Origin: the human T2T-CHM13v2.0 reference genome, Homo sapiens
NCBI RefSeq assembly: GCF_009914755.1
Contig: NC_060925.1
Strand: one strand, 5' to 3'
DNA length: 64,000 bases
Positions 13,893-16,777 of this stretch are shown here, piece by piece. Every line of letters begins with the position of its first letter. The first letter of the stretch is position 1. The notes beneath the pieces were generated by a model that did not search any database, had not been told where the DNA came from, and saw only the letters and a list, made by a program, of their open reading frames with translations. A program made the position numbers and the translations under genes.

Positions 13893-14096
13893 TTCTCTTC
13901 TGGCCTTTTTAACAAGCCAGAAGAGCCCAAAGATGAATCTCCTTCTTCATGGAGATTGGGACTGAGAAAAACTGGCAGCCACAACATGCTGAGTGAGGTG
14001 GCCAATTCCAGGGAACCTATAAGGGACCGAGGCTCTTCCATCTATCGCTCCTCTTCAAGCCCTCGGATTTCTGCTCTACTGGACAACAAAGATAAG
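13893..14096 (+). CDS. PPP1R12B: PPP1R12B coding exon (~exon 10)
   Basis: ctcatag|TTCTCT...GATAAG|gtgcag; 204 nt; FSSGLFNKPEEPKDESPSSWRLGLRKTGSHNML...IYRSSSSPRISALLDNKDK; LRKTGS and RSSSSP resemble the MYPT1 S445 and S472/S473 phospho-motifs. Confidence 0.96.
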
Positions 14097-14399
14097 GTGC
14101 AGTTTGGGAGGGTATGGGGGAATTCCAAGGCAGTTTTTTTTTTCCATGAAAATTCAATCTTAGGAACAAATGAAAATATTTTCTAGTCCTTAAGTTGATT
14201 TTGGAAATGCAAAGTCTTTAAAGAGAGAGAGGCACACTGATAGTTTATTCAAGTAGCTATTTGCTTGCTATTGTTTGCTTGACCAAAAAAGAAAATAAAA
14301 AAGCTTTAAAAATAGCTTTTCCTTTTGGTTTGTTCAATCTTCCTTGCCCCCTTACCTAAAGCAAAAAATGGATCAGCAACATAAAAATTTCAGTATGGC

Positions 14400-16030
14400 G
14401 GAGGGGGGCACAGGACCCCAGGTAGGGGTCCTGGATCCAGAGGGCCAATTCCCGTCCCCCCAGCGGCATGGCTTCGTGTGCTGAACCCTCTAAGCCCTCT
14501 GCCCCCGCCTCCTGCCAGGGTCCCACCGCTTGAGGACTTCAAGGTGCTGGATGGGGTGGAGGATGCAGAGGGCGAGGAGGAAGATGACCTGAAAGAGCTG
14601 CCCCCGCTGGGCATGGGACAGCCCCCGGTGGAAGAGGCTGAACAGCCTGGGACATTGGCCCTAGAGTTCCTCGCTGCCATGGAGCCTGAGCCCGCCCCGT
14701 CCCTGGCCCCGGAAGCAGCTGTTGAGGAAGAAGACGCTTGTCCCAGGGCCGCCGGGTTCAAGCCGCCCAGTCAAGGGCCAGGTGGTTACCGTGCATTTTG
14801 CAGACGTCGTGAGAGAACAGCATGTGGGAGCTGGTGTTCACCTTGAACAACTGTGACGTCATCCAGGCCCTGGATCTTAGTGTCTAACTCACGGACGTGG
14901 GGGAGACGGCCATGGTCACTGCTGACTCCATCTACTGCTATAGCCCCCAGGGCAGGAGCCCATACATCCACCGCACGCGGCCCTGTGCCTGGAGGTGACC
15001 CCGAAGACGGCCGTGGACTGGCCTGACCTGGAGATGCTCACAGGGCAGGAGCGCATGGCCCTGGCCAACCGGAAGCAGGAGTGCGGCAGTGCCCACTACC
15101 AGTGGGCGGACTTCATCCTGGCCGCCAACTCCTATGACCTTGCCATCAAGACCATCACCTCCAGCGCCAAAGTGGACATGACGTTCGAGGAGGAGGAGCA
15201 GCTCCTGTAGTTGAAGGTGAAGTGTCTGAACAACCTGGCGGCCTCGCAGCTGAAGCTCGACCACTACTGCGCAGCCCTGTGCTCCTGCAGCCTCGTTGGA
15301 GCACCATCCAGACAATATCAAGGCTGTCCTCCACAGAGGCAAGATACTGGCCCAGCAGGGTGAGTACAGTGAGGCCATCTCCATCCTGAGGGCAGCCCTG
15401 AAGCTGGAACCTTCCAACAAGACGATCCACGCAGAACTCTTGAAGCTGGTGAAGAAGCACGTGGCACAGCGGAGCACGGAGACCGCCCTGTACTGGAAAA
15501 TGCTGGGCGACCCCAGCTGGCTGCCCGCCAAGTGCCCTGGCAAGGGTGCCTGGTCCAGCCCATGGAAGTGGCTGTTTGGGGCGACTGCTGTTGCCTTGGG
15601 GGGTGTGGCGCTCTCTGTGGTCACTCCTGCCAGGAACTGACCACCCAGGTGGCCGCCACCCCCTCTGTACACCATGGACCCTGCCCTGTGCTCCCTAACT
15701 CCCCCAGGCTCCCTGTCCACTGCCCTTCCTGGTCCGGCCCCCTCCTCCAAGTTGGAGGCAGCAAGGACTGGGGGTTGTGCAGCCCAGCCAGCAGGAGGGA
15801 CTGAGGCCCTCTAGGAGGAATGCGCAGAGTGAGGGGGACCTCATTCCTTCAGACCCACTTTCCTCCCCACTCCCCTTCTCCTGCTGGGCTAGGTCTCCAC
15901 TGGGGCCAGCCTCAGTTTCTCCTCAACAGGTTTGGGGACAGCCCCTCCTGCCCTGCTTGCCCCACACTGTCTAGGCTCACTTCCTGCCACAGTGTAATAA
16001 AGCCTCCTACCCTGCAAAAAAAAAAAAAAA
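14400..16030 (+). pseudogene. FKBP8 (FKBP38) processed pseudogene, near full-length mRNA copy, sense to host
   Basis: Intronless; ATG at 14468 (MASCAEPS..); fragments [57 protein letters not shown]; frameshifts and TAG at 15208; AATAAA 15996-16001; poly(A) 16016-16030; TSD TTCAGTATGGC at 14389-14399 and 16031-16041. Confidence 0.95.
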
Positions 16031-16777
16031 TTCAGTATGGCCTAAGAGGTTCTCTGGGCTTTGAGTCCAAATTAAGCTCAGGCAAATTAGTACTTAGAAA
16101 AAAAAAATTTTTAACTTGTCATTCTTTCATTAATATGGAAAATGTGGTTAGGCTAACTTCACACATAGTTTGTGTATTCATTCAAGATTAGTAAATTTTT
16201 ATTTTCTTCACTTTTTAGTTCCAGATTTTATAGGACTCTCTTTGTGCTTTTCTCTGGGGTCACATCTTCCTTGTAATCACAGTCCTCTTGCTTTATATCT
16301 CTGGAGACTACTGAAAGAGATGAGGCATATTGGTTGAATTAACTCTGCAGCATACTATTGTACATATTCCTAAGGAAGCTGTATTTCAAGGAAAAGATGT
16401 ACTGGGGACTATTGGGGACTACATAAATCTTATTTCATCAAGAATATTAGAGTGGAGCTTTCTGTTTGTGTCTTCAAAGGCTTTCCTCCTCTCTTGACAG
16501 AGGTGCTGCTTTGCATAATTTGTGCTGCTGTTTTCTTTATTTACTCATCCTGACTTTCCCATGAGAATTATTTCCCTTCATACTGTTTTTTAATGGAAGA
16601 AAGTTAGGAATAAGCTTTTGAAAGCTAACCTTTTGTAAATACCACTCAAAATAGAATTAGTGTTGGATCCAGAAATAAGATGATATAGGTATATTAAGTT
16701 CTGCTTTTTTACTCAAAATGTTTTATGCTGTGCCAGTATTGTACCTTTCTTGTGCTTTACTTGTTTTTATTTTACAG

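What the first reader, a model, noticed from the sequence alone, without database searches (positions are those of the whole stretch)
13893..16041. Sense FKBP8 retrocopy as 3'UTR and poly(A) site for truncated N-terminal MYPT2 isoforms
Seen: the exon ~10 donor is non-consensus (AAG|gtgcag). Read-through stays open for 29 codons (VQFGRVWGNSKAVFFFHENSILGTNENIF*, stop 14184-14186). About 200 nt later a same-strand FKBP8 retrocopy supplies an intact AATAAA (15996); an earlier AATAAA sits at 14294. Known: sense-oriented intronic retrocopies can cause premature polyadenylation. Inference: a composite terminal exon would yield an NMD-immune MYPT2 that keeps the ankyrin/PP1c-binding half and the LRKTGS/RSSSSP motifs but lacks the ROCK site and leucine zipper. 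Its 3'UTR would be an FKBP8 mRNA copy, so it may share regulators with FKBP8.
Basis: partly seen in the sequence, partly recalled or inferred. Interest (0 to 1): 0.72.

Follow-up and report, generated by a model that had tools for sequence, protein, structure and literature searches.

The report
Short MYPT2 isoform; FKBP8 pseudogene bystander
This is ordinary: an already annotated shortened form of the muscle phosphatase subunit MYPT2 ends at its own intronic poly(A) signal, 86 bases before an already catalogued FKBP8 pseudogene, which is likely just a bystander and not the transcript's tail.

Summary
The sequence features are real, but the proposed link is not supported. Exon 10 of PPP1R12B reads through its GT donor for 29 codons to a stop at 14184-14186. 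The supplied RefSeq table already has the extended exon 13893-14314. That end lies 15 nt after AATAAA 14294, is followed by a U-rich tract with no A in the next 20 nt, and stops 86 nt before the retrocopy. The 515-aa product is in protein databases; skipping exon 9 gives 386 aa. The FKBP8 processed pseudogene (14400-~16025, target-site duplication, ~10% diverged, stops and frameshifts) is annotated and in print. Its AATAAA (15996) lost the parent's downstream element and is followed by a genomic A15, a classic internal-priming trap. Similar read-through endings are listed for monkeys, lion and peccary, so the exit probably predates this primate-age insertion, although those models may be projected from human. 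I found no 3'-end data for either site, so minor use of the distal site stays open. Verdict: a known composite-terminal-exon isoform next to a known pseudogene; low interest.

The parts
13893..14096 (+). PPP1R12B (MYPT2) exon 10, residues 419-486; holds RKTGS and RSSSSP
   Evidence: supplied annotation; translation
14094..14102 (+). 5' splice site AAG|GTGCAG: canonical GT, off-consensus at +4 to +6
14097..14186 (+). intronic read-through: 29 codons plus TAG, the C-terminus of the 515-aa isoform
14187..14314 (+). 128-nt 3'UTR of the annotated composite terminal exon (13893-14314)
   Evidence: supplied annotation
14294..14299 (+). proximal AATAAA, 15 nt before the annotated end
14315..14354 (+). 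U/GU-rich downstream element (T 0.50; no A in the first 20 nt)
14383..14399 (+). 5' copy of the target-site duplication, starting at a T|AAAAA L1-endonuclease-like site (consensus recalled)
14400..16015 (+). FKBP8 processed pseudogene (LOC100420423; annotated only to 15837), from parent exon 1 to the parent's poly(A) site; stops at 14885 and 15208, frameshifts near 14967 and 15296
15641..16015 (+). copy of the FKBP8 3'UTR, 87.7% identical over 373 columns, with about 32 nt deleted
15996..16001 (+). retrocopy AATAAA, without the parent's downstream element
16016..16030 (+). genomic A15 (residual poly(A) tail plus the start of the target-site duplication); internal-priming risk
16026..16041 (+). 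3' copy of the target-site duplication

Best explanation
An annotated short MYPT2 transcript runs through the exon-10 donor and ends at 14314, just after an intronic AATAAA and 86 nt before the FKBP8 processed pseudogene, which is likely a bystander that inserted later. Mechanism (composite terminal exon): when the modest donor is not used in time, cleavage likely occurs at the AATAAA 14294 / U-rich site (inferred from annotation and motifs). The mRNA would have a 128-nt 3'UTR and no downstream exon junction, so it would escape junction-dependent NMD (inferred). It encodes 515 aa, or 386 aa if exon 9 is skipped (computed). The protein keeps the PP1-docking RVRF, the ankyrin repeats and the equivalents of the MYPT1 S445/S472/S473 sites (shown by sequence). 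It lacks T646 and the C-terminal PKG-interaction/leucine-zipper domain (shown), so it is predicted to bind PP1c without ROCK-site or PKG control (untested). The pseudogene came in by L1-type retrotransposition in a simian ancestor (dating inferred) and is decaying.
For: Supplied RefSeq exon 13893-14314 ends 15 nt after the hexamer, on TA, with 0 A in the next 20 nt and T 0.50 in the next 40. The -40/+40 core described in PMC2553571 (passage) lies wholly 5' of the insertion site. The 515-aa protein is held by ncbi, uniref, nr and eukprot, 13 members. Same-junction read-through endings occur in 7 of the 121 proteins held: the human/chimp cluster, baboon, colobus, squirrel monkey, lion, peccary and one unnamed contig. 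The lion tail aligns to the human one, 16 of 29 identical, stopping one codon later. The retrocopy differs from FKBP8 at 4.1% of non-CpG codon positions 1+2 (19 of 465) and 6.6% of non-CpG sites overall (85 of 1284), a primate-age insertion by recalled rates. It carries 2 stops and 2 frameshifts in 259 codons. PMC11727581 names this retrocopy and says it is in the UCSC track (passage).
Against: I saw no 3'-end or long-read data for either site: supplements of six poly(A) or retrocopy papers gave no usage rows (several files cut or unread). The lion, peccary and monkey entries come from uniref only and may be projected from the human model. The tail is poorly conserved (squirrel monkey 12 aa, peccary 16 aa), so it may be neutral. 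The donor is only modestly weak and the intron is small (2,681 nt), whereas composite-exon sites are typically in large introns with weak donors (PMC3708835). The 30 nt before 14314 are A-rich, so nearby ends could be mis-primed even though the annotated end is not. I could not check directly which species carry the insertion.
Confidence: 0.8

Rival explanations
1. One reading: the retrocopy supplies the main 3'UTR and poly(A) site of the short isoform, giving a 1,829-nt chimeric UTR that shares regulators with FKBP8.
For: Same strand, intact AATAAA 14 nt before the A tail; the 3'UTR copy is 87.7% identical to FKBP8.
Against: The annotated end is at 14314, before the copy. Polymerase must first pass a better-looking site (rank 7 vs 50 of 58). 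The parent's downstream element (T 0.35) was not copied. 16 A in 20 nt make oligo-dT ends at ~16015 uninterpretable. Only 163 of 400 parent 7-mers remain. A 1.8-kb UTR is not clearly NMD-immune (long-UTR NMD, recalled).
Confidence: 0.06
2. Tandem sites: most short transcripts end at 14314, and a minority that pass it are caught by the retrocopy's AATAAA.
For: The hexamer and its spacing to the A tail are intact; TE-derived poly(A) sites are common among non-conserved intronic sites (PMC2553571 passage).
Against: No annotated transcript in the supplied table uses it; weak downstream context; no usage data found.
Confidence: 0.15
3. The retrocopy does not form the UTR but raises use of the upstream site, by transcriptional interference as at H13/Mcts2 or through its G-rich 5' end (+86 to +95 from the cleavage site) acting as an auxiliary element.
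For: The geometry (intronic poly(A) site upstream of a sense retrogene) matches H13/Mcts2 (PMC13309782 abstract and introduction); the copy includes about 43 nt of FKBP8 exon 1; G-rich auxiliary elements within 100 nt are described.
Against: At H13/Mcts2 the effect needs an active CpG-island promoter. Here CpG o/e is 0.35 overall and 0.44 in the first 500 nt, against 0.68 at the parent's promoter, and 33% of CpG-context sites have changed, as expected of methylated, silent DNA. Read-through endings are listed for non-primates.
Confidence: 0.07
4. The short isoform is low-level leakage captured in a few cDNAs, and its appearance in other mammals is annotation projection (not exclusive with the best explanation).
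For: Read-through length is within chance; the tail varies in length and sequence while exon 10 is conserved (lion 64 of 68 vs 16 of 29); no paper on it was found.
Against: A well-formed poly(A) site is matched by an annotated end; the paralogous MYPT1 exon has no AATAAA until about 900 nt past its donor, so the arrangement is not generic to the family.
Confidence: 0.3

Closest known systems
Annotated short PPP1R12B isoforms (515 aa and 386 aa; recalled accessions NM_001167857 and NM_001167858, not seen in any call)
   Same: Same exon 13893-14314, same C-terminus (P0001 is 100% identical); skipping exon 9 gives 386 aa.
   Different: Nothing: this is that isoform.
Composite-terminal-exon intronic polyadenylation (IgM secreted form, CSTF3 intron 3; PMC3708835)
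   Same: Poly(A) site in an intron downstream of a 5' splice site; the terminal exon holds exon and intron sequence; truncated product.
   Different: The intron is small (2.7 kb, about 1 kb before the insertion) and the donor only modestly weak; no regulation has been shown.
FKBP8 processed pseudogene LOC100420423 (UCSC retrogene; PMC11727581 Fig. S1A, text passage seen)
   Same: Same element, in a PPP1R12B intron.
   Different: Its real extent runs to about 16025 plus the duplication, about 180 nt beyond the RefSeq end of 15837.
H13/Mcts2 host-retrogene pair (PMC13309782)
   Same: Sense retrocopy in an intron with a host poly(A) site nearby.
   Different: Mcts2 is an active retrogene with a CpG-island promoter; this copy is disabled and CpG-depleted, and no promoter activity is known to me.

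Membership tests
Processed pseudogene (L1-mediated retrocopy) | Parent exons joined without introns | tested here: met
   blocks match 9 successive stretches of chr19 FKBP8
Processed pseudogene (L1-mediated retrocopy) | Poly(A) tail at the parent's cleavage site | tested here: met
   the match ends at the parent's AATAAA+14 nt, then A15
Processed pseudogene (L1-mediated retrocopy) | Target-site duplication | tested here: met
   14378-14399 vs 16020-16041
Processed pseudogene (L1-mediated retrocopy) | Disabled reading frame | tested here: met
   2 stops and 2 frameshifts in 259 codons; 31 non-synonymous vs 18 synonymous changed codons
Composite terminal exon (intronic polyadenylation) | 5' splice site upstream of an intronic poly(A) site, terminal exon holding exon and intron sequence | tested here: met
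   donor 14096, AATAAA 14294, annotated exon 13893-14314 (supplied table; definition)
Composite terminal exon (intronic polyadenylation) | Hexamer within 40 nt upstream and U/GU-rich element within 40 nt downstream | tested here: met
   15 nt spacing, T 0.50
Composite terminal exon (intronic polyadenylation) | Weak 5' splice site in a large intron (typical, not required) | tested here: inconclusive
   lowest consensus match of 10, middling U1 energy, 2,681-nt intron; MaxEntScan not available
Composite terminal exon (intronic polyadenylation) | Polyadenylated 3' ends measured at the site | not testable with these tools
   no usage rows in the supplements searched
Retrocopy-derived 3'UTR / poly(A) site of a host gene | Host transcript contains the retrocopy and ends in it | tested here: not met
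   against annotation only: the alternative exon ends at 14314, 86 nt before the copy; unannotated RNA not testable here
Retrocopy-derived 3'UTR / poly(A) site of a host gene | Complete poly(A) signal with downstream element | tested here: not met
   hexamer present; downstream T 0.225 (0.325 beyond the A tail), rank 50 of 58
Nested-retrogene transcriptional interference (H13/Mcts2 type) | Active CpG-island promoter on the nested retrogene | tested here: not met
   CpG o/e 0.35-0.44; promoter activity itself not measured

The most novel reading that the evidence does not exclude
In simian primates the FKBP8 retrocopy has become a second, distal poly(A) site of the exon-10 composite exon, or strengthens the proximal one, so that muscle or brain makes more of a ROCK- and PKG-insensitive N-terminal MYPT2, partly under a chimeric FKBP8-derived 3'UTR.
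Probability: 0.15. Interest if true: 0.45.

Novelty: already known. Interest (0 to 1): 0.12.

Why it matters
As found, it matters little: both parts are catalogued and the link between them is unsupported. It is a useful caution that a genomic A15 at a pseudogene end will look like a poly(A) site in oligo-dT data. What remains open is the function of N-terminal MYPT2 species. Three separate exits within about 5 kb (exon-10 read-through, exon-12 read-through, a 41-nt stop-carrying exon) would each give a 500-570 aa protein without T646 or the leucine zipper, and my searches found no study of them. If the retrocopy did feed one of these, it would be a primate-specific tuning of myosin phosphatase.

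Tried and rejected
Read-through length as a sign of selection: rejected (19% by chance; 2 of 9 other donors longer). Retrocopy as a promoter: CpG-depleted. Retrocopy as a spliced terminal exon: one acceptor-like site only, at about 15916-15929 near its 3' end; no support. Other copies of FKBP8 in the genome: the search returned only this copy and the chr19 parent (a lower bound). The intron piece 14097-14400 as a repeat-derived poly(A) site: single match in the genome. Same arrangement in MYPT1: read-through of 8 codons and no AATAAA within about 900 nt of the donor. Search with the lion tail for more non-primate short isoforms: 3 of 38 candidates passed, none new. Literature: no paper held with 'PPP1R12B' + 'intronic polyadenylation'; 1 listing, by title on another subject, for six short-MYPT2 phrases; none for one search's terms; listings not on this isoform by title and abstract start. 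Supplements without PPP1R12B usage data: PMC3192792 (1 file, 4,042 characters), PMC7290577, PMC5928244, PMC8559711 (annotation rows only; file 1 unread), PMC11727581, PMC10651852 (file 1 unread), PMC6169888 (5 of 16 files unread). Unseen or cut tables may hold site usage. One search's codon-position count used three exon borders off by one base and was discarded; one search is the corrected run.

Full report
Observation. The window is human PPP1R12B (supplied annotation). AATAAA occurs at 14294 and 15996, and A15 at 16016-16030. The donor AAG|GTGCAG is a canonical GT. It has the fewest matches to a recalled consensus of the ten donors, but its predicted U1 pairing is middling: three of ten are weaker and one ties. 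A 29-codon read-through is not unusual: 19% of intronic codon positions in the window have as much open frame ahead, and two of the other nine donors read through 33 and 35 codons.

The retrocopy. A genome search with 14400-16015 returned this locus and eight pieces on chr19. Local alignment maps the copy block by block to FKBP8 from exon 1 to the parent's poly(A) site, and translated pieces match solved FKBP8 chains. It is flanked by a target-site duplication. Divergence is 9.6% overall, 6.6% at non-CpG sites (85 of 1284) and 33% at CpG-context sites. At non-CpG codon positions 1 and 2, where the parent should have changed least, it is 4.1% (19 of 465). With recalled primate rates this suggests roughly 30-40 million years, a simian insertion (inference). 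In 259 codons there are two stops, two frameshifts, and 31 non-synonymous against 18 synonymous changed codons. The element is annotated as LOC100420423, and PMC11727581 cites it as a known UCSC retrogene in a PPP1R12B intron (passage).

The short isoform. The supplied table lists exon 13893-14314 for another transcript. That end is 15 nt after AATAAA 14294. The next 40 nt are 50% T with no A in the first 20, ranking 7th of 58 AATAAA sites in the window by downstream T content. This fits the core layout described in PMC2553571 (passage) and the composite-terminal-exon class defined in PMC3708835 (passages). The whole core lies 5' of the insertion site, and the retrocopy starts 86 nt after the end. 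The 515-aa product is a database protein (P0001, 13 members, four sources). Skipping exon 9 gives 386 aa; exon 9 is treated as skippable in the hg19 annotation file of PMC8559711 (supplement rows). RefSeq accessions for these isoforms are recalled, not seen. The protein keeps RVRF (53), the ankyrin repeats, RKTGS (443) and RSSSSP (470). These match MYPT1's NUAK sites S445/S472 and CDK1 site S473 (PMC4109838 passages; paralogous exon). It lacks RRSTQG with T646 (ROCK-site label recalled) and the C-terminal PF15898 domain.

The distal site. The retrocopy's hexamer is intact, but retrotransposition copies nothing 3' of the cleavage site. The parent's downstream 40 nt (T 0.35) are replaced by A15 and the duplication (T 0.225, rank 50 of 58; 16 A in 20 nt). 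Any oligo-dT end there is suspect. A transcript ending there would have to pass the proximal site and would carry a 1,829-nt UTR. The FKBP8 3'UTR copy is 87.7% identical and keeps 163 of 400 parent 7-mers, so shared regulation would be partial at best.

Comparative evidence. Of 121 proteins held (one search listed the best 120 of 370 hits), 7 end in a read-through of this donor: the human/chimp cluster, baboon, colobus, squirrel monkey, lion, peccary and one unnamed contig. Lion's tail aligns to human (16 of 29 identical, against 64 of 68 in the exon). Lion and peccary diverged long before the insertion, so the exit probably does not need the retrocopy. Against this: these entries are uniref-only and may be projected from human, the tails vary from 12 to 47 aa, a search with the lion tail added nothing (3 of 38 candidates), and I could not read those genomes.

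Rivals. Transcriptional interference as at H13/Mcts2 (abstract and introduction read) needs an active CpG-island promoter. The copy's CpG o/e is 0.35-0.44 against 0.68 at the parent's promoter. Minor tandem use of the distal site cannot be excluded, nor can the short isoform being low-level leakage.

Literature limits. Ten searches found no paper on this isoform or on use of the retrocopy's poly(A) signal; the library lacks most subscription journals. Supplement searches gave no site-usage data; several files were cut or unread and may bear on this. PMC5087845 (parts 1-2 of 5) and PMC10851227 (passages) did not mention the isoform in what I read.

Verdict. Already known; interest 0.12.

Noticed in passing
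window 19159-19199: A 41-nt cassette exon (annotated in another transcript) puts a stop four codons after exon 12 (ending RSIKM), giving about 560 aa. The same or a near-identical ending is in 8 of 121 proteins held: galago (49 members), naked mole-rat, jerboa, pygmy sperm whale, a bat, camel and two unnamed contigs. It has its own donor, so it is a candidate conserved poison exon; better conserved than the exon-10 tail.
   Followed up: partly
window 18645-19085: The exon-12 donor (AAG|GTACCA) is also off-consensus; read-through gives 14 codons, then ATTAAA at 18823, 18888 and 19080. Read-through endings at this junction occur in 3 of 121 proteins (two unnamed contigs and black swan, 28 members). 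A possible second composite terminal exon.
   Followed up: partly
window 14109-14117: A possible in-frame alternative donor AGG|GTATGG 15 nt into intron 10 would add five residues; not in the supplied annotation; predicted U1 pairing -5.6 kcal/mol.
   Followed up: no
window 15838-16041: The RefSeq pseudogene model stops at 15837, but the FKBP8 match continues to 16015, followed by the A tail and the target-site duplication.
   Followed up: yes
window 14400-14870: The retrocopy lacks the parent's Glu-repeat segment (24 nt) and appears to lack sequence around the parent's exon 2/3 junction; it joins exon 1 to exon 2 about 43 nt in.
   Followed up: no
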